Assembly: GCA_000934665.2 (NCBI GenBank)
Contig: KZ538947.1
Coordinates: 1 to 39,158, forward strand
Direction of reading: 5' to 3'
Length of the DNA: 39,158 nucleotides
Source of the DNA: Catajapyx aquilonaris
Taxonomy: Eukaryota
Position 1 is the first letter of the stretch, and each line of letters begins with the position of its first letter. Below, one piece after another: positions 14,462-35,264 of this stretch. The translations under genes were made by a program, and so were the position numbers. Under the pieces are notes generated by a model. The model saw only the letters and a program-made list of their open reading frames with translations, did not search any database and was not told where the DNA came from.

Positions 14462-14745
14462 GGGGGGCTGGTAGTCTAGTGGCTATGCTACTGGCTAGCC
14501 AAGCGGGAGGTCTGGGGTTCAAATCCCTTCCCTGTATCCTCTGTTTGGTCGGGTATTTTTCCATTTTTCACCCGACATGTCCGGGCAGATTTGCACTCCC
14601 TTCTCTGCCCAGGGCCAAGAGAAAAGGTCTGGTGTTTATGAGGGTCTGCAATGACTAGAAACTTTAAGAGCGCTCTCCCTTCAGTCCCTTGGGAACCTCC
14701 CCTTTCCCACACGCCCATGGACCAGGGCGTCGCGACGAAACATAC
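14462..14745 (+). mobile_element. tRNA-derived SINE
   Basis: A box TAGTCTAGTGG (14472-14482) and B box GGTTCAAATCC (14516-14526). The body (CTCCCTTCTCT.CCCAGGGC.AAGAGAAAA...CCCTTGGGAACCTCCCC) recurs inverted at 28095-28215. Confidence 0.7.
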
Positions 14746-16819
14746 TGTATGTATAAATATTGCAAAGTTAAATGAAGGTCCATGTAATACCTCGAAAGAG
14801 GTCCGCACTACATAATTATGATCTTTGCGGTCGCTTAAGTCGTGACTCTGACCCAGACCAAGACTGAGGGTCACCTCTGGCGAAAGCAGTGTCCAGGATG
14901 ATGATGGAGAATAATCAATTGTCCAAAACCTCCCTGGCCCTTCTCCACGACAACCCAGTGCTGAGCACAGGCTTGAACCGACTCTCAACAATGGCCGTGG
15001 TGTAAAAGGTCATCGTGATGTCCACCCACGGCAACATGGCAGGAGTGGACCAAACCTCATTAGTGCTTCAGACGTATAGTGTGGCAGGGGCTGGTGCTTC
15101 ATAGTCCTCGGACTCCTCGCCTTCTCCAGGCTGCAAGAAAGCATCGAACTGATTTGAAAATTCGCGATGGCAAAGGTAGGTTACTTAAAAATTTATCGTG
15201 ATTACACCTTGTTCCACGTGACGGAGACACACCTTCCCAAAGTAGCAGTATGGGAAGAGTACTATCATTTGAGGTACAGGCTCGTCATCAGGCATCTTAG
15301 CAGTCAAAAGAAGACAGCCAACTGAAGTTCAACCCTGCTACTTTTGCGATCATGAAAACTACTCTGTGACCGAGGTGGTCAACGCGACCCGATTTGACCT
15401 GTTTCGAGATACGACCGAAGACTGCTGGGGCGGAAGGGCCATCGAGGTGTGCCACAGTTTGTTACATTTGATCGAAGCTCATCAGAAGCTTTTGCAACGA
15501 GGCAGAGGATACCACGGATGAGTCGAATCGCCAACCGTATCCTCGCTTTGCACATTGTCACATGTACTTCTGCAATCAAGGTTGCACTACACTCAACCGT
15601 AGTACCGTTGGTACCGTACCACACAGAGAAGACGGTTATGGTGACCAGATATAAGTCCTGGAAGTTCTGGGACTACCTGCACCTCGACCTGCACGCACCA
15701 TTTTCAGGACAAGTCTGGCTGGGACTGGCAAAGTCCGCGTCTGTCCGTTTGCCTGTCAGCTCTCGTGGTCTTCGTATTATCAGGACGGAGGTCATCGTGG
15801 AAGGTGCTGCCTCCTATATTCGGGCAAGGAATCGGCCTGACGCCTGACCTCTCTGAGCCCTCCAGCAAAGTCGCTATTCAAACTTGCTATTCAAACTGGT
15901 CATGGCCACTGCCTACACTTCCAAAGTAAGCTTATGACCCATCCACCTGTCAAAACAGTCAAGTCCTCCTGGACATACCTGCTGGACAACGGCTACGGAT
16001 GGGGCTTCCAGAACAGTCCGTACTTCAGTCACGCCTACACCACGGGTAACCCACTGATGTCCGTCATTGCTGAAAGGGGAGACGAATACGACGGTGACAA
16101 CCAGGAAGTTTCTTGCCAAGTGTGTCGGTAAGCTTCTTGCGCGGAAAGTACGCACGCCTTCTTCCGGCTTGTTCAAGACCTCGTGGGACCTCCACTGGGA
16201 CGTGGACATCATTTCTCACGAGGACCAAGCTTTACTCGATGGACACAGAATATCCGGCGCTGTACGTGGCCATGTCGACCAAAATGTACAGAACCGGTAC
16301 GTGGTTACGTACGAGACGCTGAACCGAGCTGTGCTTATGTATTCCTGAACTTTGAACTGTACTCCCACCTTCTAAGCACGATAGGCCTACCTGAACAACG
16401 GGATAAAATTTTTTGTCGTCCATGTACGGACAGGCTGTCCACCCTGTCGGTCCTAAAGCTGCGAAACTGAAGTACTTAACATCACCTTTCCTCCGTACAG
16501 TACCTGCTGATCACGGGATCTTGCTTATGTATATATCATATGTGTGTGTGTCTTGCATCACAAATTGTCGTGGACATATTGGACTGTTGCTGGACTACTG
16601 GTGGTGACAGGACTTAGCGATACGGTACGGCTTAACGATCATTCTACAACATGTTATAACGAAATATCCTGACCTACAGTATATGCAGACTCAGCTTACA
16701 TATAACCCCCACAATCATGTTTGACCTGGAGGTCAGCGAATCAATCATTTCATGATATTTCAGATAGTGTGTGTACAGTAAGTCTTGTGCACTGAACGTT
16801 GCCTGGTCTCTAGTCACAC

Positions 16820-18295
16820 ATGTCTGTGGTAAGAATAATTCCCGTTATTGTTGAATGTGGAGGAAATTTTTACACTGCGGTAATGTTTGGTCTTATGTTT
16901 TTTCTCCTGAAGACTCTGTGCTTGGTTCTGATTGTGGCTGGGTGTGAGGCTTCATCTCTGCGTACAGCAGCATCCAATGGTCGTCTGGAAGATGTTAAAG
17001 TGATTATTATTGAGCAAGAACATGGTCAAAGGACCGGTATGGGTAAGGAGGCAGCGATTTTTGCTGCTCGGAGTGGTCACTGGCATATAGTGCGCTGGAC
17101 ACTGGAGAATTATCCGGGCATCATCAAGGACTATTACACCAGCTTCTTGTTGCTAAGTTCAGCAGTGTCGTTAGGTCACTGGGATTCAATTAAAATGCTG
17201 ATCAACTCTGGAGGGTTACGCAGTTACTCGGATTCAACCCTGATCGACACTGCGACCAACAATGGTCACCTGGAAGTGGCCAAGTTCTTATCAAGTTTGC
17301 TTACAACCACTGTGACATGCAACCAGGAGAGAATGGTAGTGACAGGCTACTATGTCCATTTGCGTGACATAATAAAGCTGTGTCCGAACTTGACCCAACT
17401 GGTCATCTTCGCATGCGACACCGTGTTCATAGACACAGATTTGGCTCAAGCTGGCCTTAATCTGGCGATTGTTGCGCCAAGATGGCACGTTTTGGGACAC
17501 AGAAAACTAGTCCTGGATGGTGCGCCAGGACGCCATCAGACGAAGGGTACATCAGGGCAGAATCCAGGTACACCAGGCCACAACGGACAGGCTGGTCTGC
17601 CTGGAAGACCGGCCGGAAACATGCTGGGAATAGGAGTCGACTTTGTGGATAGCCAGCTGTTAACAATCACTGCCAATGGTGGTAGAGGTGGAAGAGGACA
17701 GGACGGAGGGGACGGAGCGAAAGGACAGGATGGTGTGACGGACCTGAACACTAAATGCATTGTTGATCCCGTACATCTTACGGGGGTAAGGAAAGAAGTG
17801 ATTGAGAGCAAGTGCTGGTTCCTGTGGGGTTGCACTGTCCAGTACGGATTTACCGGATCGGACGGACAAATCGGGGGGAATGGAGGGGACGGCGGGAGGG
17901 GCGGGAAAGGGGGTTATCCGGGACAGATCAACATTGTTGGCTTGGGGACAGAATATCCGGAGATCACCGTCCGGGCTGAGAGTGGAGCTGAAGGCGGCCC
18001 GGGTAGAGGCGGACTTGGAGGAATCGGCGGACTGAACGGGGACATGGTCGAGGGACGACTGACTGTCCGACTCTGGCTGTCCCCATGGAGGGACATGAGA
18101 TTCGGACAACGACATCCGAGGGGAAGAGCAAGGTCAGGTCGTCGCGGAAACCCCAGATACAACATGGAGGTGAAGCAGCCGGAAAAGCCTCTACCTCTAA
18201 TTACAGCAGAAGTAATTAACACGTATACAGGCCAACTGGTACAACATCTGGATGACACTACCTGGAAGACCTGTCCGAATTTTACACTTGTTTGA
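16820..18295 (+). CDS. Single-exon putative secreted protein with ~4 ankyrin repeats and a collagen/PGRS-like glycine-rich region
   Basis: Uninterrupted 491-aa ORF; the likely start is ATG 16883 (MFGLMFFLLKTLCLVLIVAGCEA, signal-peptide-like). Ankyrin motifs: LRTAASNGRLEDVK, AIFAARSGHWHIVRW, LSSAVSLGHWDSIKML, IDTATNNGHLEVAKFL. These are followed by a VFIDTDL...LAIVAPRW domain and four GXX-periodic tracts. AATAAA lies downstream. Confidence 0.85.
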   Translation: MSVVRIIPVIVECGGNFYTAVMFGLMFFLLKTLCLVLIVAGCEASSLRTAASNGRLEDVKVIIIEQEHGQRTGMGKEAAIFAARSGHWHIVRWTLENYPGIIKDYYTSFLLLSSAVSLGHWDSIKMLINSGGLRSYSDSTLIDTATNNGHLEVAKFLSSLLTTTVTCNQERMVVTGYYVHLRDIIKLCPNLTQLVIFACDTVFIDTDLAQAGLNLAIVAPRWHVLGHRKLVLDGAPGRHQTKGTSGQNPGTPGHNGQAGLPGRPAGNMLGIGVDFVDSQLLTITANGGRGGRGQDGGDGAKGQDGVTDLNTKCIVDPVHLTGVRKEVIESKCWFLWGCTVQYGFTGSDGQIGGNGGDGGRGGKGGYPGQINIVGLGTEYPEITVRAESGAEGGPGRGGLGGIGGLNGDMVEGRLTVRLWLSPWRDMRFGQRHPRGRARSGRRGNPRYNMEVKQPEKPLPLITAEVINTYTGQLVQHLDDTTWKTCPNFTLV

Positions 18296-18469
18296 CCAGG
18301 GATGAGCGAGTTTTAAACGGCTTAATCAGGACACCTATTGGGTCTGTGCCTCGGTTTGTTCGCTGTGAGTCATCAGTAATGTTCCGAGTGAGCCATTTAC
18401 GTGAGGGGCCTGTTAGGCTATACACTATACTACACCCATAGTTGGGGAGGCCATTTAAAATTCTAATTC

Positions 18470-18480
18470 AATAAAATAAA
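18470..18480 (+). promoter_or_regulatory. Candidate polyadenylation signal of the ankyrin/Gly-rich gene
   Basis: Overlapping AATAAAATAAA 175 nt after the stop codon. Confidence 0.45.
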
Positions 18481-18553
18481 ATTGAGAACTTTTTAATTAA
18501 TTACTAATGTAAAACTATGGTAGTAATATCATGACCATGAGTAAACTGCAAGT

Positions 18554-19225
18554 GAGGGGGTGAAAATCAAAAACCGACAGCTCCGTCATAAACGTAACGG
18601 AGAAAAACGAGAAAAACCTACAGTTTCGCCGTATGTCAACGTAGACACCTGAATGTAGCGGCTATAGATTCCTTTACTAGCAACTCAACCATTGGTAAGT
18701 TATTATGAAATCATCCGCCATTACCCAAGGAGCTGTGGACCGTCCATTCCGCCACTGGCCGGTTTTTGATTTGCAACAGGCTGGAGTTGGCGCTTTTTGA
18801 TGCAAAATTGAGTGAGGGAAACATGAAACACAGGTTTATCCGGTGTGTAAATGTTTAAGTTTATTCCACGCTTACATACCAACGTTCCATTGCATTACGC
18901 AAGGTGTTCTGTTAAAATTCTGTAAATTCTGTAAAATTCGCACCGTCGTTATCCATACGAGCTTCGCAGTATGTACTGTCTCCCATAGCTTTAGTTTCGT
19001 GATGGAGCTGGCGGTTTTTGATCTGTAATTTTCTGCGAGTGGGGATGGAGCTGGCGGTTTTTGTTACGGAGGTCACTTTTCACCCCTGCATTTGACGGCT
19101 TTGTTGTAGGATTTTAAATACCATATTAAGGTATTATGTACTCCATGGCATGAGGAATGCATTGCCGGCGCTAACTCATTTTTTTTGGATTTTTGGAGCT
19201 GTCGGTTTTTGATTTTCACCCCTTC
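18554..19225. mobile_element. Sola2-like non-autonomous DNA transposon (672 bp)
   Basis: 31-bp TIR GA(G/A)GGGGTGAAAATCAAAAACCGACAGCTCC with an exact 4-bp TSD AAGT (18550-18553, 19226-19229). Internal copies of GGAGCTGGCGGTTTTTG. GRG ends with a 4-bp TSD are Sola2 hallmarks. Confidence 0.75.
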
Positions 19226-19573
19226 AAGTATGAGTAGTACGAGAAATTTTGAAGACGAAAAGCAACAAGCAGCATTGGCAGCTTTACTGTTATAAGCAAC
19301 ATCAGTCATATTTGGTGACACTAGCTGTGACCGACATAGGCTACTCGTCACTGCTTCTCTTCAGCTTCTTTCAATCACTTACACTTGACTTTTACACCAC
19401 TTCCGATGAAAGTGCTACTTTCGAAGAGCTGGGAGCAATTTGTCCCCTTTTTTGCACATCCTTTCGTAGCTAATTTTTCCTGATCGCGGTAAATGCTCTT
19501 AAAATTCAAACTAAATGCCAGTATGCATATGTTGTAACACATAAATAATTATATGTAACATACAGTATATACA

Positions 19574-20235
19574 CACTGTAATACCGATTATCCGGGTGCG
19601 GATTATTCGTGCATCGCCAAAAATGAAATTAAAAAGAAAAGTCTAACGTCAGACAATGTCAATATGTCTCGCAAACTAAGAAATACCGTATAAGACTTTT
19701 TCTAGAAGATAAATTTAAAACATGTGTTAAGTTTCATTATTTTGATTAAACCTGAGTTAAAACAGCCTACACTATGACGAACAGTAGCACATTAAAAACC
19801 TGCGAATAGCTGAATTTTTTAGTGTTTATGACTATTTTTCCGATTATCCGGCAACAGCGTAACACCCTTGCAGTCATCCAAGTCATCCAAGGGGGGGGGG
19901 NNNNNNNNNNNNNNNNNNNNNNNNNNNNNNNNNNNNNNNNNNNNNNNNNNNNNNNNNNNNNNNNNNNNNNNNNNNNNNNNNNNNNNNNNNNNNNNNNNNN
20001 NNNNNNNNNNNNNNNNNNNNNNNNNNNNNNNNNNNNNNNNNNNNNNNNNNNNNNNNNNNNNNNNNNNNNNNNNNNNNNNNNNNNNNNNNNNNNNNNNNNN
20101 NNNNNNNNNNNNNNNNNNNNNNNNNNNNNNNNNNNNNNNNNNNNNNNNNNNNNNNNNNNNNNCCCCCCCCCCCCCAAATCGCGAAAGTCTGGATCCGCCC
20201 CTGAGTCATTAGCCCGGATAATCTGGAGTACAGTG
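19574..20235. mobile_element. pogo/Tigger-like MITE spanning the assembly gap, with a hAT-type end nested inside
   Basis: Imperfect TIR CACTGTA.T.C.GATTATCCGGG at both ends, followed by TA on the right. CTGGATCCGCCCCTG (hAT-type CAGGGGCGGATCCAG end) terminates at 20203. The gap is flanked by G and C runs. Confidence 0.5.
19901..20162. other. Assembly gap (262 N)
   Basis: Run of N flanked by poly-G and poly-C. Confidence 1.
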
Positions 20236-25319: not shown

Positions 25320-28300
25320 CTACTGGTGTTTGAATATGACAGTACGATTCAATTTTTTACGTAGGCCTACATCAGGACCCTTGTTCTCAAAGTTAAATGA
25401 CCTTACAATGTGATGTCGTCTGGCTTCAAGAAAAAACCGTATAATGTATCTAAGGAGGGAAAACACATGATTGTCTACATTAAACGCTGTTTCCATAGCA
25501 TGCTGGGACAAAGAAGCAAACACACCTCGGGATGCTACTCTTTCAAACAGAGAAGTCTCAAACTTCTTATTAAAAACAGAGATGGGCAGATTTCCGTAGG
25601 TAACTATGGCAGCGCGTACAGCCTTCTCACATTCCCTCACAACCTGCACCACGTCATCACTTGGGTAGCATAACTCTCCATTTGTTTTGATCTGAATTAA
25701 ATAGGAATTCTCTAGAAGCTGTGGAGTTGAGGAATCCTGAATGAGACTTGTACGGCACAAAGTACAGTTTACAATAGGCAGCAGTCGCTTGACAACGTAG
25801 CCTGAAATATAGACCAGGACATTCTCGTCAAAAGGGGTAAACAACTTAACTTGCGACAGGTCCAACTCCACGACTTCCTCCTCATCCTCTTCAACAGGCC
25901 TTATCCTATTTACACATAACTGTGAAACATCAGTGTCATCTAGTACCATAACATTTGCACCCTTAACACCTGCTCTGCATAGGATAGTACGATATGCGGA
26001 TTTGAATTGTGAAGCATTTGGATTGTTATTTGCTCCACCAGATTGACGAAAACAGCAAAACAAGAGCTCAGCATGATCTTGTGAGCACTTGTAAGTTAAT
26101 ACGTATCTCATGCGGGGTGAGAGCAAGTCATCAAAAAGTAGGAACTTAAAAATGGCAAGGAAGCTGGTAATGGTCGCCACAAACCCCACAATAACATGAT
26201 GCCTTCTTGAACAGGATATCAGATTGTCTTTGGTGTCACACAAATTGAGCAAAACGGATTGTGCATGGAGAAGAAAGGAATGCACACGAGCATAATTGGA
26301 GGCAGAAATAGGAGCTTTGTATCCTTTTCCAAATGGACTGCGGCTATTGAGAATGTCAAATAATCTGTCCATCACAAAGAAAAAGTCTGCTGTTGCTTGC
26401 ACATCAACAAAATCTGGTTCACCCAATGCCTTCATGAAAAGGAATGAATTTGCAACAGATGCACTTAGCACCTGAACAGCCAGTTTCACTTTCATAACCA
26501 TAGATTTGAATTCAGTGTGATCTCTAGTAAGTTTATTGGCTGCTTTCAGGCCTTCTGATACTTGTCTCTGCTGAACCAGCTCAACATACTTCCACCGAAC
26601 AACACCAAATTCTGGAGATTTAACCTCTTTCATAGCATGTAGCATATTCCGGACAAGTTTCATATATACGGCACTCTGATTTTCTAGTGAGCCATCACAC
26701 ACAATTGAAAGAGTACGCACACCAACTTTGTACAGTTTTTCCAGGCACAATTTAGTCAGATGTGCAACGACTTCTGCAGGGGGTTTACTGACTAGAAAAT
26801 ATGCGACTGGAATTTTCCAATGTCCACGCAATCCAACTACAACAAACACCAAAGCATCTGTTGCTAGTGGTGCGGTTTCGTTGGCACCACTGCCATAGTC
26901 AACGTGACCCTTCAACTTACCATCATTGTTCAAAACAGCGCCTTTCCTTATGCTCATTCCATCAAACATAAACACAATGTCTCGATACTTGAGGGGGTCT
27001 TCTTGCACATATGCAGCGAGTGAAGTGAAGGCCATTTCAGTAAATCCTGGTTCGGCTTCCACAGCTGATAACCATCTGAAACGACAATTCTAATGTACTG
27101 TACAGGGTGACCTGGTACGGTGACCCAAAAGTCTGGACACATATAGGTACCCTAATTGCATTGCATTGTTGGCTGTCAGTTACGCCAACTGGAGTTAACT
27201 ACTGTTGACAGTCAGTAAATGATTAGTTCTTGGAGTTGGCACAACTGGCAAACAACAATACAATTACTGATGTGTCCAGACTTTTGGGTCACCCTGTATT
27301 CTAATATTGTCAAGTTCCAGCTCACCTGATAGGCACTCTGGTGCAGCTCAGAGGGAGCAGGTTTTCCAAACTCAATCACAACACAAGGAATTGATTATAA
27401 AATAACAACTACATTTATTTGTATTAAACATCTGAAACTCCATTACATCAAACATCCTGTCCTTCTCATGAACCACAACAATAATGTCCCAATATTATAC
27501 TTAACCCCAAATGCACATACTGGATCCTATATATCATAATGAATCATAACCATTATCTCAAGTGAAATTGATATAATGGTTATGATTCATTATGATATAC
27601 AGGATACAGTATGTGCATTCCCAAGCTTCCCAATCTGATGAATGAATCACCACTCGTTGTTAACCTTCTTCTTCTTTTCCTTCTTCTTCTGAAAAAAATC
27701 CTAAACAAATATGCCAAATAAGTAATGACATCATCCCCACCATACCTAAACATTTCTGCAGAAATGGCATCAACCCCACCGGATTTGCCTAGTTGAAATT
27801 CTAAAACAGCAGTTGCAACTTACCATCCTTACCCAGCACATCATCCCCAATCACACTTACAAAAACATCAACAATGGCCTTATCACTATATCAAGTCTAT
27901 TTTTAACCTTCAATTTAACACCTACCTGTGAACTTCGAACATCCATAAAACCTGGAAGGGAAACTAAACAAAAATTAACTTGTGGTTCTCCCCAACATCT
28001 CCTATGACCAAAGGGAAAAATATCTGGAGCACTGGTAAACTGCTCGGAGATGGATTCCAGGCGTAACCATGGATTTCTTAGTACATCTTATAAACATCCT
28101 GGCCCAAGAGTGTGGGGTGGGGAGGTTCCCAAGGGAGGGTGCTGTAACTAGTTTTGGACCCTCTGTAACCCGACATTTTCTCTTAGCCCTGGGGAGAGAA
28201 GGGAGCAATACTTCCAACTATAACCATGACTGATTCTGCTAAAAACTCATAACATAACCCAAAAGGTCAGAATTGTCCATTACTTACCGCTGAACAGTCC

Positions 28301-29251
28301 TTATGCTCGGAAGAGGGACATGCTTCCGCAGAAACTCATAGGCCTTCGCTGAGTAAAATCTCAGAGTGATAGCAAAGTGCTTCATTTCGTCTGTGTATTC
28401 GTGCACAGGTTTCTTGAACAGCTCCAAGTCCAAGTCTATAATTAATAGTGGTACAAGTATTTTAAAATAAACACACACCACACAGAAACACAGACACACC
28501 AACATACCAACACAAAGTGAGACATACACACCTTCATACGCTGCTAGCTCATCCTCAGCTTGCTTGTGTAACAGCTTTTCCTTCTTCAACTCCTCTAACG
28601 CATCAAAAAGGCGGCGGCGTAACTGAACGTCTCTGTCTTGCACGTTTCTTGCTATCTATTTTGCACATAATCCAAAATGTATGAAACAGAAATTGCTAAT
28701 TAAACTAGTTAACAGTCATTACCTTCTTAAAATTTTCCAACCTCTGTTCACAATCTTCTAACTTCCTTTTCCACTTGGTTGGAGAAGTCACTGCGTAGGG
28801 CTGTTCCATGTAGACCGCATCTTGTGCCACATTTTTAGGAACCTTATCTTCATTCTGGTGTGTACCTGTTGGGATTGCTGGGAGGTGGTTGGCATCTATT
28901 GCTGCCTTGAGAGATGTACCAGATGTACGACGTACCAGAATTTTCTGCAACAAAACAAATGTTTAAAGCAGTATGGAAAATTTAACTACATGTGACATGT
29001 CACTGACAAAAGTGAATGAGGCACTTAGTTGCATGAGTGATTTTGTCACCTGCTTTAATTTACCTTTGCTGCGCCCACAATTTTGAGGCCAACTGGTCCA
29101 GGAGTTGTTGTTCCAAGTATCGAAACACCAATACTTTCAACATTTGCTCCTGAAATATTAATGCGATGCAGAATTGAGAAATATATAGAAATGCATATTA
29201 TAAAATATCAACAGTCACTAGCAAACCTTGCACATCTTGTACTCAGACTGG

Positions 29252-29317
<66 letters not shown>

Positions 29318-29770
29318 CTTCAAATTTACTACTGAAGATGGGTGTGGGGTCTGTCGGAAGGAGAATTCCGTTGGTATGGCATCCTTCTTCAGACAGTGAT
29401 GAGATCCTGGACCACCAACTTCGAAGCAACATGGCTTGAAGTGGACGGAGCAGAGATAGACATACTGTGATTTGGGTTGCCACTCTTTTTTACTGCCATC
29501 ATCTTCCACTCGACGAACATTGTGGAGCCACACTTTACGAATGTCCCGTCTCCCAGGGACATCTTTTGGAAACCTGTACAAAAGTAATGCATAGTGATGA
29601 TAGTCAACGTGTCGTCAGATTTTGCACATAGTAATTAAAAGTGCAGAGAGCATTGCTTTTTTAAAACCCACATTTCTATACAGTACTTACATATGAAAAG
29701 TAATGCCCCGCTGCTTGTTACCTAAGGTGTCACGGTTATTGCACCCAAATGCAGAGCAGGCGCGTACCAT
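25320..29770 (-). CDS. Spliced THAP9-like P-element transposase (predicted 857 aa, 6 exons)
   Basis: Phase-consistent GT-AG exons: 29770-29691, 29573-29330, 28944-28723, 28655-28532, 28435-28288, 27075-25320 (sum 2574 nt). THAP motifs CSAFGC..FP..W..LCSVHF..AIPT, then a coiled coil and FYSAKAYEFLR..LPSIRTVQRWL. Catalytic motifs FDGMSIRK, CDG, SQDHAELLF. AATAAA on the minus strand at 25054-25049 and 25045-25040. Confidence 0.9.
27103..27296. mobile_element. Tc1/mariner-type MITE in the last transposase intron
   Basis: TA|CAGGGTGACC...GGTGACCCAAAAGTCTGGACACA and TGTGTCCAGACTTTTGGGTCACCCTG|TA. The left TIR has a small duplication. Confidence 0.8.
27510..27619. repeat. Intronic AT-rich palindrome (~50-bp arms)
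   Basis: AATGCACATACTG.ATCCT.TATATCATAATGAATCATAACCATTAT is reverse-complemented at ~27573-27619 with a short loop. CCCAA occurs on both flanks. Confidence 0.8.
28095..28215 (-). mobile_element. Truncated SINE body related to the SINE at 14462
   Basis: The reverse complement aligns by eye with ~14590-14730. Confidence 0.6.
29254..29315. repeat. (GA)n microsatellite in transposase intron 2
   Basis: Uninterrupted AG run. Confidence 0.95.
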
Positions 29771-33408: not shown

Positions 33409-33522
33409 GAGGGAACGACTGGAAGGTGACACATGTTTATGTTTAGCACTTCGGCAGGGGGGTTTATCATTTCTGGCCTTCCAGTCCGGCATATCGAGGC
33501 CGGCTTGGAAGCAAGTAGCATC

Positions 33523-33792
33523 ATGGGCAAGAAAGGCAAGGGTGGTGGCCCGTTCTGTGTAATTTGTAAGCGCCATAAGAAACTATTCGAGCGAGTGACG
33601 TATTTCGCATTTCCTTGCAAACATCCGGATTTGATGCGGCAATGGCGAGAAGCCTTGAATTTGCCACCAACGTATACACCCAAGTCACATCATCAGGTTT
33701 GCATGGGTCACTTTCACAGGCAGTCGCTATTTCCCTTCAGACCGGAACAGAAGAGACGGAAACTAAAGCCTAATGCTGCACCAACACTGGAG
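33523..33792 (+). CDS. THAP zinc-finger domain exon (probable first exon of a Kolobok-associated protein)
   Basis: MGKKGKGGGPFCVIC..YFAFP..W..VCMGHF..LKPNAAPTLE gives the C2CH THAP signature with an AVPT-like box. Candidate donor GAG|GTAGGA at 33793. No downstream exons were recognised. Confidence 0.75.
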
Positions 33793-33815
33793 GTAGGAAT
33801 AATTTGGCACAGCGT

Positions 33816-33816
33816 C

Positions 33817-33850
<34 letters not shown>

Positions 33851-34655
33851 TCACGACATTTCCCTATGAGGGGTAGTCAGCGATGAAGGGAGACGCAAGC
33901 TAACCCTACATATGAACTAATAAAACTCATGAGAATAAACCTAAAAACAACCTGTCCCACCCCCCACCCCTGCCCACCTCAGACATCACCTTATCCTCAG
34001 ACATATTTACCTATTTACCCATTAATTAACCTACGCCATTTACACCTATCCAAACAAACAACCCTAGCCTCAGCCACGTCCATGGTCCTATTGACACAAG
34101 AACGTCTCGGCTTAACACTAGCAACACCCTTAAGACACTGGCCCACCTGGTCCAACCATGTCTTCCTAGGCCTACCCTTGCCCCTCTTACCAACTACTCC
34201 ACCCAAATAAACCTTCTTCACAATCTCCTCCTCCTTCATCCTCTCCACATGGCCAAACCACCTTAGAGTAGACCGACACACCTTATCTTTAACAGTCTCC
34301 TTAACATTACACCTCTCCAAAATCTCCTCATTCCTAATCCTATCGAACTTGGTAACCGCACAAACAGCCCGAAGATAACGCATCTCTGTAGCCAACACCC
34401 TACTCTTATGCCTATCTGACCAAACCCACGCTTCACTACCATACATAAGTGAAGGAACAATAACGTGAGAATAGACAGACAACCTACATGCAGAAGATAA
34501 GTCCTTATTTCTAGAAAACTTACTTGTGGCACCTATTACTTTCAACCCAGATCTAACTCTCCTGTCTATTTCCCCATCAATTCTACCATTACTCTCAAGG
34601 ACACTACCCAGGTATACAAACTGGCTGACCTGCTCAACCAGTTTTCCATCGATGC
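33816..34655 (-). mobile_element. 5'-truncated RTE-clade LINE
   Basis: An open frame to 34015 contains FVYLGS, LMYGSEAW, LRWFGHVERM and GKRGKGRPRKTW (RT thumb and C-terminal region). Short 3' UTR and a (GTT)n tail at 33816-33850. No TSD was seen. Confidence 0.92.
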
Positions 34656-35264
34656 AAAAAAAAGTCAAAATGGCGCTATTGCTTTTTGATGTTAACCTAA
34701 ACCATGACCGAAACCGTGGTGTCATATGAGGAGATAGAAATTGATAGAAAAATCATAATATATTTCTCGTAAAATGTGCAATAATGATTAAACATGTCAG
34801 GGCTATTATAAATGTGGAGAGCCATTCATCTGAACATCAGCAGCTTATCTATGGTTGTAAGTGAAATTCGAATGACAAGTCTTGACCTTGTGATGACGTT
34901 TTTAGGACGCCACTTATACTCGTACCTTGAGTATTATAAGGCTCCGGACACATTGGACCGAATCTTCTCACCGAAATTGAGGCCGTAATGGTTACGGTCT
35001 GTTTTTTTCCTCCCGGAAAATTGAACCAATAGCACAGAATGCAGCCTTGAGGAATTTGCGGAGTGCTAAAAATTGTAATGGAAAATAATGGAAATGATGC
35101 AAAACAGGCAATAAGTAGTACAAGTGTGGATATTTTCGGTAGCCAAATTCTGTCGATGTGGCAGGGACACAACACACTCTGAATAGTAATCTTATTTAAC
35201 AACTTGAATGAGGGTTTGTGAGGACGAGTGGAGGCCCAATCGGTTATCGGTCTATTTATCCAAT

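What the first reader, a model, noticed from the sequence alone, without database searches (positions are those of the whole stretch)
16820..18295. Intronless, apparently secreted ankyrin plus Gly-rich (collagen/PGRS-like) protein: candidate horizontally acquired effector or toxin
Seen: an intact 491-aa single-exon ORF among TE debris. It has a hydrophobic leader ending in CEA, about 4 ankyrin repeats, a compact domain (VVTGYYVHLRDI...LVIFACDTVFIDTDL...LAIVAPRWHVLGHRKLVLDG), and four GXX-periodic tracts each preceded or followed by a short beta-like spacer (LTITANGG, GQINIVG, EITVRA). Knowledge: ankyrin repeats are overwhelmingly intracellular in animals; secreted examples include latrotoxins and symbiont effectors. 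GGX tracts can form polyglycine-II bundles. Inference: a lineage-specific fusion, possibly of endosymbiont origin, domesticated with a signal peptide and a poly(A) site. This is the best candidate for a new functional gene in the window.
Basis: partly seen in the sequence, partly recalled or inferred. Interest (0 to 1): 0.8.

Follow-up and report, generated by a model that had tools for sequence, protein, structure and literature searches.

The report
Ankyrin plus glycine-helix module gene
An intact, single-copy animal gene joins ankyrin repeats to a complete copy of an unnamed protein module, predicted to fold around rare glycine-built helices, that arthropods share with their intracellular bacteria; its function is still unknown.

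Summary
An intact 491-aa ORF lies at 16820-18295(+). It has a hydrophobic leader, about 3.5 ankyrin repeats and a Gly-rich C-terminal part.

The "compact domain" and the four GXX tracts are one conserved module of about 330 aa with no Pfam model. It defines a large unnamed family: 3384 cluster representatives at E<=1e-3. Named members come from spiders, hemipterans, thrips, wasps and a cockroach, from Cardinium, Amoebophilaceae and Rickettsia, and from mycorrhizal fungi.

In relatives the module usually follows a P-loop GTPase. The ankyrin fusion seen here is rare.

AlphaFold models the module at pLDDT mostly above 90. Its Gly tracts superpose on snow-flea antifreeze protein, a polyproline-II helix bundle (Z 11.2, rmsd 1.8 Å).

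Only five strongly conserved residues are neither glycine nor aliphatic (D205, P220, W222, P261, Q294). I therefore read it as a rigid binding scaffold, not a toxin.

Family-level exchange with endosymbionts is plausible. Recent transfer of this copy is not supported: GC3 is 0.50, identity is at most 47%, and read depth matches the flanks. Secretion and expression are untested.

Earlier scan notes describe similar beta-helix plus polyglycine modules on bacterial surface proteins in other genomes. Kinship with those was not tested.

The parts
16820..18295 (+). Intact ORF of 491 aa (ATG to TGA)
   Evidence: an in-frame TAG at 16811-16813 closes the frame upstream
16820..16951 (+). Leader, residues 1-44. 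The hydrophobic stretch covers about residues 17-41 and ends in VAGC-EA, a pattern that fits both a (-3,-1) signal-peptide cleavage site and a bacterial lipobox
   Evidence: Hydropathy scan. Modelled as a helix at pLDDT about 80 in the N-terminal model. Lipobox-like pattern. No signal-peptide predictor was available
16829..16912 (+). Candidate 84-nt in-frame mini-intron (GTAAGA ... TTTTTTCTCCTGAAG). If spliced, the leader would read MSV|TLCLVLIVAGCEA
   Evidence: Sequence inspection and translation. Untested, because no RNA data were available
16952..17299 (+). About 3.5 ankyrin repeats, residues 45-160
   Evidence: Pfam Ank_2 E 3.8e-7, above the cut-off. PDB phmmer 4qfv_A E 4e-17. The repeats are divergent: the single-sequence AlphaFold model has low confidence here
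17306..18259 (+). Complete copy of the unnamed beta-sheet plus Gly-rich polyproline-II-bundle module, residues 163-480
   Evidence: Family hits over the full length. pLDDT mostly above 90. Snow-flea antifreeze protein (sfAFP) Z 11.2 and leucine-rich-repeat or beta-helix chains Z 6-7.4
17306..17518 (+). N-terminal beta-strand part of the module, residues 163-233, with the conserved D205, P220 and W222
   Evidence: Strands in the model. Conservation 0.97, 0.94 and 0.92
17519..17629 (+). Gly tract 1, residues 234-270 (G-x-x with Pro)
   Evidence: Conserved Gly at 234, 253, 256, 259, 262, 266 and 270. pLDDT about 97 with no helix or strand assigned
17672..17734 (+). Gly tract 2, residues 285-305 (ANGGRGGRGQDGGDGAKGQDG), the most conserved stretch; Q294 is 91% conserved
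17735..17854 (+). Variable insert A, residues 306-345
   Evidence: Family length range 0-116 aa and mean top-residue frequency 0.17. The lowest pLDDT within the module falls here
17855..17926 (+). Gly tract 3, residues 346-369
17981..18043 (+). Gly tract 4, residues 388-408
18044..18136 (+). Variable insert C, residues 409-439, modelled as a beta hairpin followed by a basic stretch
   Evidence: Family length range 6-78 aa and top-residue frequency 0.21. Strands 409-417 and 423-432
18203..18250 (+). C-terminal helix, residues 462-477. It corresponds to the first helix after the module in relatives. Short-form relatives (P0010, P0013) end soon after this point too
18470..18475 (+). AATAAA, 175 nt after the stop codon
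   Evidence: motif only, usage untested
18553..19226 (.). High-copy MITE-like element with 32-nt inverted ends. It bounds the unique DNA that holds the gene
   Evidence: Inverted repeat I1. Word depth in the thousands against about 24 over the gene

Best explanation
This is a real, single-copy nuclear gene of an animal genome. Other notes of this scan call the genome an arthropod; I did not check that.

**What it encodes.** A hydrophobic leader, about 3.5 divergent ankyrin repeats, and one complete copy of an uncurated module of about 330 residues. The module belongs to a large family shared by arthropods, their intracellular bacteria (Cardinium, Amoebophilaceae, Rickettsia), mycorrhizal fungi and free-living bacteria. 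In that family it normally sits between an N-terminal P-loop GTPase and, in the long forms, a coiled-coil plus C-terminal domain. The window gene has neither of these. It is a stripped, lineage-specific ankyrin fusion.

**How the module is built (shown by model and conservation).** A beta-sheet packs against a bundle of glycine-rich polyproline-II helices of the snow-flea-antifreeze type. Two hypervariable inserts sit between the conserved glycine tracts.

**How it most likely works (inferred).** It is a non-enzymatic, rigid binding scaffold. Its variable inserts, together with the ankyrin repeats, hold a partner. The leader sends it into the secretory pathway, so it ends up secreted or membrane-anchored.

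**Origin (inferred).** The family has probably moved between symbionts and arthropods. This copy has been resident long enough to match host base composition.
For: **Gene reality and residence.**
- The ORF is intact.
- One 3.5-kb unitig (15030-18577) has word depth 23.8/18.3/30.3 in three runs. A neighbouring unique contig (14634-15055) has 28.7/22.1/37.8, and the bin at 19836-20000 has 21.1/12.9/22.5. Repeats with depths in the thousands bound it.
- It sits among eukaryotic transposons.
- ORF GC3 is 0.50 and the upstream flank GC is 0.49.

**Family.**
- 3384, 862 and 47 representatives at E<=1e-3, 1e-10 and 1e-30.
- 142 of the best 150 carry the module by a local HMM; the other 8 are ankyrin-only hits.
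- Named members lie on chromosome-scale arthropod scaffolds and on bacterial contigs.
- GTPase-type Pfam hits are weak but recurrent: RsgA_GTPase in 14 of 42 and MMR_HSR1 in 14 of 42.

**Completeness.** The query has the majority residue at 50 of 52 conserved columns.

**Fold.**
- pLDDT is mostly 84-98 over residues 161-470, with dips to 60 and 82 in two 10-residue blocks.
- sfAFP 2pne_A gives Z 11.2, rmsd 1.8 Å, with 79 of 81 residues aligned. It was the only chain of 48161 with Z>=8 on the whole model. GrAFP 7jjv gives Z 9.8, and a second look agrees.
- 39 conserved Gly columns have a three-residue period.

**Scaffold rather than enzyme.** The only positions at least 80% conserved that are neither Gly nor aliphatic within the module are D205, P220, W222, P261 and Q294. 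Inserts A and C vary from 0-116 and 6-78 residues.

**Leader.** Hydrophobic N-terminal leaders occur in 35 of 177 stored proteins that start with M. That count includes the query, two internal false hits (P0061, P0147) and three members of one cluster.
Against: - No expression data exist; no RNA run was listed.
- No signal-peptide predictor was available. The hydrophobic stretch is 25 residues long if translation starts at M1, which fits a membrane anchor as well as a cleaved signal.
- Secreted ankyrin proteins are rare (general knowledge).
- The ankyrin part folds poorly in both models.
- The query is a long branch (1.08-1.24 changes per column) with unusual amino-acid make-up. No close relative was found: best identity is 47% over part of the module and 37-39% over the whole. 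Purifying selection therefore cannot be measured.
- The binding role rests only on analogy and on the lack of catalytic-looking residues.
- Sequence-level kinship to any solved polyproline-II bundle was not detected.
Confidence: 0.5

Rival explanations
1. The whole ORF (leader, ankyrin repeats, module) was taken in one piece from an intracellular bacterium, as a lipoprotein-type ankyrin effector. It now acts as a domesticated effector or toxin.
For: - The best hit overall is Cardinium hertigii (E 2.5e-46).
- An Amoebophilaceae protein also combines ankyrin repeats with the module and shows 47% identity over 146 residues.
- The pattern [LVI][ASTVI][GAS]C within the first 45 residues occurs in only 4 of the 177 stored proteins that start with M: the query and the three members of that Amoebophilaceae cluster.
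- The ORF has no obligatory intron.
- In metagenomic relatives the module sits with RickCE/Ulp1-type peptidase and SecA-like domains. The passages I read of PMC3482391 list the OTU, Ulp1-like, GIMAP-GTPase and SecA-like domains of Amoebophilus and related endosymbiont effectors.
- Among named hits only, the log E-value difference favours a bacterium by about 20 natural-log units (my arithmetic).
Against: - GC3 of 0.50 equals the flank. That is unlike the AT-rich genomes of such symbionts (their AT-richness is recalled, not tested).
- The ankyrin parts of the query and P0020 do not align.
- In the careful tree the query sits, at 92/90 support, in a group of mostly arthropod sequences plus Cardinium.
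- Holding the three bacterial rows as one clade is not rejected (p-AU 0.0875), so no donor can be named.
- No toxin or enzyme domain was found in the ORF.
Confidence: 0.2
2. The ORF is an unexpressed relic. It could be a decaying or recently stranded copy, for example a retrocopy or transposon-captured piece of a longer family member, left open by chance of youth.
For: - It lies alone between high-copy repeats and transposon remains.
- It lacks the GTPase and the C-terminal partner domain that most relatives have. A tblastn of all 182 stored proteins gave 191 matches, none outside the ORF.
- Its branch is long and its composition odd.
- No RNA evidence could be obtained.
Against: - 491 codons without a stop is very unlikely for old neutral DNA, about 6e-11 at 3 stops per 64 codons (my arithmetic).
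- 50 of 52 family-conserved positions are kept.
- The module is complete at both ends and stops where the short-form relatives stop.
- Its composition matches the flank, so it is not young.
Confidence: 0.2
3. The protein is functional but not secreted. The leader is an uncleaved membrane anchor, which leaves the ankyrin repeats and the module in the cytosol on an organelle or plasma membrane.
For: - The hydrophobic stretch is about 25 residues long and is modelled as one long helix.
- Ankyrin repeats are usually cytosolic (general knowledge).
- The charges flanking the stretch are balanced, so topology is open (sequence).
Against: - Many relatives have short, classical-looking cleavable leaders.
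- A small-residue site (C-E-A) follows the hydrophobic core.
- If the candidate mini-intron is spliced, the leader shortens to a typical signal-peptide length.
Confidence: 0.25
4. The ORF is symbiont or contaminant DNA wrongly joined to host sequence.
For: The closest named relative is bacterial. The runs that hold the stretch may be the ones the window was assembled from, so they are not independent.
Against: - Word depth equals that of neighbouring unique host DNA in three runs.
- The 1.8 kb upstream lies on the same unitig; Pfam found no family in the one upstream ORF there that I scanned (15398-15847).
- GC3 is 0.50.
- The flanks are eukaryotic transposons.
Confidence: 0.03

Closest known systems
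Springtail antifreeze proteins (snow-flea sfAFP, PDB 2PNE/3BOG; Granisotoma GrAFP, 7JJV): glycine-rich polyproline-II helical bundles
   Same: The four Gly tracts of the model superpose on the whole sfAFP chain: Z 11.2, rmsd 1.7-1.8 Å, 79 of 81 residues. Both show the same G-x-x period.
   Different: There is no detectable sequence kinship; the module profile found no antifreeze protein at E<=10. The 42-43% identity in the superposition is glycine composition. Here the bundle is welded to a beta-sheet and interrupted by long variable inserts. Its exposed positions are charged (R, D, K, Q). Nothing suggests ice binding.
Other natural Gly-rich polyproline-II bundle domains: Obg N-terminal domain, phage S16/PP01 gp38 adhesin tip, ALK/LTK glycine-rich domain, acetophenone carboxylase. 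Listed in the Introduction of bioRxiv 10.1101/2023.11.25.568672, which I read; its Table 1 is an image I could not see
   Same: Both have conserved glycine motifs that alternate with variable segments. In gp38 the variable segments are the receptor-binding loops (recalled). That is the working analogy for inserts A and C.
   Different: gp38 of PP01 gives only Z 5.5 and Obg only E 4.3 by profile. ALK/LTK did not appear in the lists, which does not exclude them. The family here is not among those listed in that paper.
Modular effectors of intracellular bacteria (Amoebophilus, Rickettsia, Wolbachia) with ankyrin, GIMAP-type GTPase, OTU/Ulp1 peptidase and SecA-like domains. Source: Zhang et al. 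2012, PMC3482391, passages read
   Same: Relatives of the module occur in Cardinium, Amoebophilaceae and Rickettsia proteins. In metagenomic proteins they sit with RickCE_cat, Peptidase_C48 and SecA_DEAD domains and with divergent P-loop GTPases.
   Different: The passages read do not describe the module itself. The window protein is host-encoded and lacks every enzymatic domain.
Beta-helix plus polyglycine-II 'head' modules on bacterial and archaeal surface proteins, noted earlier in this scan (e1-3333907, e1-2783236)
   Same: The predicted building style is the same: a short beta-solenoid-like sheet joined to glycine helices, on secreted proteins, read as a rigid binding tip.
   Different: Look-ups by sequence found no look-alike windows.

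Membership tests
Ankyrin repeat (Pfam PF12796 Ank_2) | Profile score above the curated cut-off | tested here: met
   31.0 bits against a cut-off of 27.3, E 3.8e-7, residues 49-131. PDB phmmer 4qfv_A E 4e-17
Ankyrin repeat (Pfam PF12796 Ank_2) | Stacked helix-loop-helix repeat fold | tested here: inconclusive
   pLDDT is below 60 in this part of both models. Helices are present but not confidently packed
Unnamed GTPase-linked beta/polyproline-II module family (no Pfam or NCBIfam model) | Full-length match to the module, with the conserved Gly pattern and D205, P220, W222 and Q294 | tested here: met
   Relatives align over about residues 163-480. 50 of 52 conserved columns are kept
Unnamed GTPase-linked beta/polyproline-II module family (no Pfam or NCBIfam model) | N-terminal P-loop GTPase before the module (usual architecture) | tested here: not met
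   The ORF holds no P-loop domain. No family-like coding piece lies elsewhere in the window: 0 of 191 tblastn matches fall outside the ORF
Unnamed GTPase-linked beta/polyproline-II module family (no Pfam or NCBIfam model) | Coiled-coil plus C-terminal partner domain, fused or encoded next door | tested here: not met
   76 of 182 stored family proteins have it, and in L007 it is the next gene. It is absent from the ORF and the window
Gly-rich polyproline-II helical bundle (fold class) | Gly at every third position, or two of three, in several short tracts | tested here: met
   39 conserved Gly columns with a three-residue period in four tracts
Gly-rich polyproline-II helical bundle (fold class) | Three-dimensional bundle of left-handed extended helices | tested here: met
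   In the predicted model only: sfAFP Z 11.2, rmsd 1.8 Å, 79 of 81 residues. pLDDT is about 97 in the tracts, with no helix or strand assigned. An experimental structure is not available
Collagen triple helix (Pfam PF01391) | Profile match; uninterrupted G-X-Y runs without GG doublets | tested here: not met
   No Collagen hit at E<=1. The tracts are short and full of GG doublets
PE_PGRS (mycobacterial) | N-terminal PE domain before the Gly-rich region | tested here: not met
   No PE-family hit at E<=1. The N-terminal part is ankyrin
RTX calcium-binding beta-roll | Tandem GGXGXDXUX nonapeptides with a profile match | tested here: not met
   No RTX-type Pfam hit at E<=1. The conserved Gly period is 3, not 9
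Eukaryotic cleavable signal peptide | Short hydrophobic core followed by small residues at -3 and -1 | tested here: inconclusive
   C-E-A follows the core. The core is about 25 residues long from M1 and shorter from M22 or after the candidate splice. No predictor was available
Known anti-phage defence systems (PADLOC) | Profile match to a catalogued system protein | tested here: not met
   No hit for the query at E<=0.01. A relative gave only weak P-loop matches (mad8 5.4e-5, Avs2 6.2e-4)

The most novel reading that the evidence does not exclude
The beta-sheet plus polyproline-II module may be the recognition head of an undescribed GTPase-driven conflict system. That system would comprise GTPase, module, and a coiled-coil plus C-terminal effector, either fused or as a two-gene pair. 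It would be shared by free-living bacteria, intracellular symbionts, mycorrhizal fungi and arthropods. On this reading the window gene is a secreted, GTPase-less derivative in which ankyrin repeats replace the motor, and it works as a soluble receptor or decoy in host-symbiont or host-parasite conflict.
Probability: 0.15. Interest if true: 0.8.

Novelty: new variant of a known kind. Interest (0 to 1): 0.55.

Why it matters
Glycine-rich polyproline-II bundles are among the rarest protein building styles. The review text I read lists only about half a dozen natural families.

This module would add a large family with hundreds of sequence clusters. It has no Pfam or NCBIfam model, and I found no paper on it. 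It spans arthropods, their endosymbionts, fungi and bacteria. It is wired to GTPases, to deubiquitinase-like peptidases and, in one bacterial contig, to neighbours typical of conflict systems.

The window gene is a natural minimal version: module plus ankyrin repeats, 491 residues. That makes it a convenient handle for solving the fold and finding what the module binds.

It is also a clean case for asking how genes shared by symbionts and hosts are rebuilt after they settle in an animal genome.

Tried and rejected
**Searches that gave nothing or little**
- The window's own genome is not held, so I could not look for paralogues or a partner gene.
- No RNA holder was listed for the stretch, so expression and the candidate mini-intron are untested.
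- A genome-contig scan with the single protein found no relative. Alignment A1 had no stretch conserved enough to search with. With A2, only 1 of 551 pattern matches was a relative, a small secreted Pseudomonas laurentiana protein (hhalign probability 94.5).
- A viral-contig scan found 0 relatives among 225 pattern matches.
- NCBIfam gave no hit for 7 proteins. PADLOC gave nothing for the query.
- The protein Atlas gave only unnamed clusters at 0.85-0.90, which are leads only.

**Fold searches**
- Foldseek against PDB gave 0 matches at E<=1e-3.
- BFVD gave a Mimivirus LCMiAC02 protein (E 1.8e-10) and a Terrestrivirus protein labelled DUF7932 (E 1.6e-3).
- No DUF model matched the query or the 42 members of A1 by sequence. 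No paper holds 'DUF7932'.
- The module profile against PDB gave only glycine linkers; Obg scored E 4.3. Homology to known polyproline-II bundles is therefore not shown.
- A single-sequence fold of residues 1-170 had mean pLDDT 46.8 and was useless for the ankyrin part.

**Self-association**
- The homodimer prediction for the module never ran. Four hand-ins met a full queue (and one between 101 and 110). Six repeats inside the 120-second wait were not sent on.

**Trees**
- The AU test on the 85-row tree did not finish, and the repeat gave no answer. I replaced it with an 18-row test (p 0.0875).
- Rickettsia grouped with spider sequences at 99* in the quick trees. The careful tree leaves this unresolved.
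- The pairing of the query with Thrips palmi had support of 88-92 in the quick trees. In the careful tree it is not recovered at 80 or more.

**Literature**
- Six searches on family terms and accessions found no description of the module; a seventh, on polyproline-II bundles, led to the papers cited.
- One accession (LOC100680511) appears in a planthopper saliva proteome table with 1 unique peptide and no predicted signal (PMC5935387, one passage read). Its S3 Table was not opened. This is a weak lead only.

**Readings rejected**
- Collagen, PE_PGRS and RTX membership.
- An ice-binding role: the exposed positions are charged and the family occurs in endosymbionts.
- Contamination.
Full report
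**1. The observation**

The frame from 16820 to 18295 on the + strand is open for 491 codons, from an ATG to a TGA. A TAG two codons before the ATG closes it upstream.

The first 44 residues hold a hydrophobic stretch at about positions 17-41 that ends in IVAGCEA.

Residues 45-160 are ankyrin repeats. Pfam Ank_2 scores 31.0 bits against a cut-off of 27.3 (E 3.8e-7). Four other ankyrin models score just under their cut-offs. A search of all PDB sequences returned 167 sequences at E<=1. Every one of the 60 shown matched only within residues 25-164, and nearly all are ankyrin-repeat proteins. The best, 4qfv_A, has E 4e-17. The span equals about 3.5 repeats rather than 4.

Nothing in Pfam matched residues 163-491 at E<=1. 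AATAAA lies 175 nt after the stop.

**2. The surroundings**

They are eukaryotic and rich in repeats.
- A MITE-like element with 32-nt inverted ends lies at 18553-19226.
- A P-element-type transposase, broken by introns, lies at 25320-29614 on the minus strand (THAP, Tnp_P_element and TNP-like domains).
- Another THAP frame lies at 33430-33876. An ORF at 34015-34752 that looks like a reverse-transcriptase fragment has no Pfam hit.

I laid the contigs of four DNA runs on 14500-20000. Three of the runs may be the source of the assembly.
- A single unitig covers 15030-18577 at word depth 23.8/18.3/30.3.
- The neighbouring unique contig at 14634-15055 has 28.7/22.1/37.8, and the bin at 19836-20000 has 21.1/12.9/22.5.
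- The stretches on either side of the unitig reach depths in the thousands.

The ORF is therefore single-copy at the depth of the surrounding genome. ORF GC3 is 0.50, the 1.8-kb upstream flank has GC 0.49, and the window as a whole has 0.43. Contamination by a symbiont is very unlikely.

No RNA run was listed. Other notes of this scan call the genome an arthropod; I did not verify that.

**3. The 'compact domain' and the Gly tracts are one module of a large unnamed family**

An exhaustive HMMER search of 1.84 billion cluster representatives gave 3384 proteins at E<=1e-3, 862 at E<=1e-10 and 47 at E<=1e-30. Most of the 150 best-listed rows are one continuous match beginning at about residues 160-200 and ending between about 400 and 480.

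I built a local HMM from eight short relatives. It finds the module in 174 of the 182 proteins stored at that point. The 8 without it are ankyrin-only hits.

Named members:
- Spiders: Araneus, Larinioides, Argiope.
- Hemipterans: Halyomorpha, Planococcus, Laodelphax, Lycorma, Kerria.
- Thrips palmi, the wasps Nasonia and Trichomalopsis, and the cockroach Periplaneta. Many of these are on scaffolds of 18-218 Mb.
- Bacteria: Candidatus Cardinium hertigii (the best hit of all, E 2.5e-46), an Amoebophilaceae MAG, a Rickettsia helvetica MAG (1.37-Mb contig) and a proteobacterial MAG.
- The mycorrhizal fungi Gigaspora and Dentiscutata, and the nematode Panagrolaimus.

Of 32 top hits, 29 had no Pfam family at E<=1e-4. 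Among 42 members scanned at E<=1, the only recurrent signals were weak P-loop GTPase models: RsgA_GTPase in 14 and MMR_HSR1 in 14. NCBIfam has nothing.

**4. Usual architecture of the family**

The usual order, sometimes preceded by a hydrophobic leader, is a P-loop GTPase, a helical region and then the module. In the long forms a coiled coil and a conserved C-terminal domain follow. 76 of 182 stored family proteins have this last part.

On a 409-kb metagenomic contig (L007) the two halves are adjacent genes of 876 and 870 residues. They lie beside a Uma2 nuclease-like gene and an EAD4-STAND NTPase gene.

Some metagenomic relatives carry other domains.
- RickCE-type or Ulp1-type peptidase domains occur in P0173, P0175 and P0181.
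- SecA-like helicase domains occur with two or three copies of the module in P0081 and P0124.

The passages I read of Zhang et al. 2012 (PMC3482391) list domain sets for Amoebophilus and other endosymbiont effectors. These include OTU- and Ulp1-like peptidases, GIMAP-type GTPases, ankyrin repeats and SecA-like domains. The passages do not mention this module.

The window protein has none of these additions. A tblastn of all 182 stored proteins against the window gave 191 matches, none outside the ORF.

Ankyrin repeats together with the module were confirmed in the query, the Amoebophilaceae cluster (Pfam on P0020) and P0025. Only 42 of the other module proteins got a Pfam scan. The ankyrin parts of the query and of the Amoebophilaceae protein do not align with each other. 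The module is complete: the query ends where the short forms P0010 and P0013 end.

**5. Fold**

I ran AlphaFold2 with a 42-sequence alignment. Over residues 161-470, pLDDT by blocks of ten is mostly 84-98, with dips to 60 and 82 in two blocks; blocks 441-470 score 88-94. The N-terminal 160 residues are poor, because the alignment rows carry GTPases there.

The four Gly tracts are modelled at pLDDT about 97 with neither helix nor strand assigned.

Foldseek found nothing in PDB at E<=1e-3. An alignment of the model to 48161 representative chains gave these results.
- Only one chain scored Z>=8 on the whole model: snow-flea antifreeze protein 2pne_A, with Z 11.2, rmsd 1.8 Å and 79 of its 81 residues aligned to model residues 238-448.
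- The nine-helix springtail protein 7jjv scored Z 9.8 after re-alignment.
- Leucine-rich-repeat and beta-helix chains followed at Z 6-7.4 on residues 163-390. A second look agreed.

Independent of the model, an alignment of 158 module sequences has 52 columns at least 80% conserved. Of these, 39 are Gly, spaced by three (253, 256, 259, 262; 287/288, 290/291, 293, 296, 299, 302, 305; 352/353 to 368; 389 to 407). That is the signature of packed polyproline-II helices.

The module profile finds no solved polyproline-II protein by sequence; Obg scores E 4.3. The likeness is therefore one of fold class, and homology is not shown.

Collagen, PE_PGRS and RTX readings fail their defining tests.

Among predicted viral structures, a Mimivirus LCMiAC02 protein (E 1.8e-10, probability 1.00) and a Terrestrivirus protein labelled DUF7932 (E 1.6e-3, probability 0.98) resemble the model. 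No DUF model matched by sequence, and no paper mentions DUF7932.

**6. How it probably works**

The only positions at least 80% conserved that are neither Gly nor aliphatic within the module are D205, P220, W222, P261 and Q294. There is no set of residues that looks catalytic.

The conserved tracts keep fixed lengths (medians 17, 21 and 17 residues). The segments between them vary widely.
- Insert A (306-345 here) ranges from 0 to 116 residues, with a mean top-residue frequency of 0.17.
- Insert C (409-439) ranges from 6 to 78 residues, with a frequency of 0.21.

A rigid glycine core presenting variable segments is the plan of the phage gp38 adhesin tip (recalled; the PP01 gp38 chain gives only Z 5.5). 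I therefore commit to a non-enzymatic binding scaffold, with the ankyrin repeats as a second binding surface. This step is inferred, not shown.

**7. The leader**

A crude filter asked for a 12-residue window with mean hydropathy at or above 2.2 within about the first 55 residues. It flags 35 of the 177 stored proteins that start with M. That count includes the query, two internal false hits and three members of one cluster. Among them are Planococcus, Lycorma and Thrips proteins with classical-looking leaders. So a secretory route is a family trait, not an oddity of this ORF.

For this ORF the route stays open.
- From M1 the hydrophobic stretch is long enough to be a membrane anchor, and it is modelled as one helix.
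- From M22 it looks like a signal peptide with C-E-A before the cut. The same holds if the 84-nt in-frame candidate intron at 16829-16912 is spliced.
- The pattern VAGC also fits a bacterial lipobox. Within the first 45 residues that pattern occurs only in the query and in the ankyrin-bearing Amoebophilaceae cluster, 4 of 177 proteins. This is a lead for a bacterial past, nothing more.

**8. Origin**

In an 85-row quick tree the four bacterial rows need four changes of label. The query is a long branch (1.08) with no well-supported sister.

In a careful site-heterogeneous tree of 27 rows, the query lies at 92/90 support in a group of 11 with Thrips, Kerria, Halyomorpha, Planococcus, Nasonia and Cardinium. 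The three bacterial rows form one clade in 0 of 200 bootstrap trees.

An AU test on 18 named rows does not reject holding the three bacterial rows together (p 0.0875). The Rickettsia-spider grouping seen in the quick trees dissolves in the careful one.

So exchange between symbionts and arthropods is plausible for the family. The number and direction of transfers are open, and no donor can be named for this copy. Its host-like composition and its low identity to everything (47% at most, over part of the module) argue against a recent arrival.

**9. Literature**

Seven searches and the passages read found no description of the module (PMC3482391, PMC7159879, PMC13243192; the Introduction of bioRxiv 10.1101/2023.11.25.568672).

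One accession of a relative appears in a planthopper saliva proteome, with one peptide and no predicted signal (PMC5935387, one passage). Its supplement was not opened.

Earlier notes of this scan describe beta-helix plus polyglycine-II heads on bacterial surface proteins. Whether they are kin is untested. Look-ups by sequence found no look-alike window.

**10. Verdict**

What stands:
- a lineage-specific ankyrin fusion;
- a polyglycine-II type fold;
- a family shared with endosymbionts;
- a plausible secretory leader.

What does not stand:
- a toxin or effector function;
- collagen or PGRS likeness;
- recent horizontal acquisition of this copy.

Expression, secretion and binding partners remain to be tested.

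Noticed in passing
L007:3408-8727 (metagenome contig, 409 kb): The family occurs as a two-gene pair. The first gene (876 aa) encodes GTPase, helical region and module. The second (870 aa) encodes the coiled coil and the conserved C-terminal domain that is fused on in the long forms. Neighbours are a Uma2 nuclease-like gene and an EAD4-STAND NTPase gene, which hints at a conflict or defence setting. PADLOC gave only weak P-loop hits.
   Followed up: partly
window 16829-16912: There is a candidate 84-nt in-frame mini-intron inside the leader (GTAAGA donor, pyrimidine tract, CTGAAG acceptor). Both the spliced and the retained form keep the frame and give a hydrophobic leader.
   Followed up: partly
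window 16934-16945 (residues 39-42, VAGC): A lipobox-like pattern ends the leader. Among the 177 stored proteins that start with M, only the query and the three members of the ankyrin-bearing Amoebophilaceae cluster have such a pattern in the first 45 residues.
   Followed up: partly
window 18553-19226: A MITE-like element with 32-nt inverted ends (97% complementary) lies here. Its word depth in the DNA runs is in the thousands.
   Followed up: partly
window 25320-29614 (- strand): A P-element/THAP9-type transposase gene is split into several pieces. They carry THAP, Tnp_P_element HTH, TNP-like RNase H, GTP-binding insertion and THAP9_C domains. The largest frame is open for 589 codons.
   Followed up: partly
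window 33430-33876 (+) and 34015-34752 (-): A second THAP-domain frame ends in a poly-Asn run. Beside it lies a 245-codon open frame that resembles the end of a reverse transcriptase but has no Pfam hit.
   Followed up: no
window 19901-20162: An assembly gap of 262 N lies 1.6 kb downstream of the gene. The contigs of the runs show several alternative joints around 19622-19836.
   Followed up: no
L001:5608-6462 (Pseudomonas laurentiana): A small (284 aa) secreted protein is a distant relative of the module (hhalign probability 94.5). The building plan therefore also exists in free-living bacteria as a stand-alone exported protein.
   Followed up: partly
stored proteins P0081, P0124, P0131, P0150: Some relatives carry two or three tandem copies of the module. 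P0081 and P0124 also have SecA-like helicase domains.
   Followed up: no
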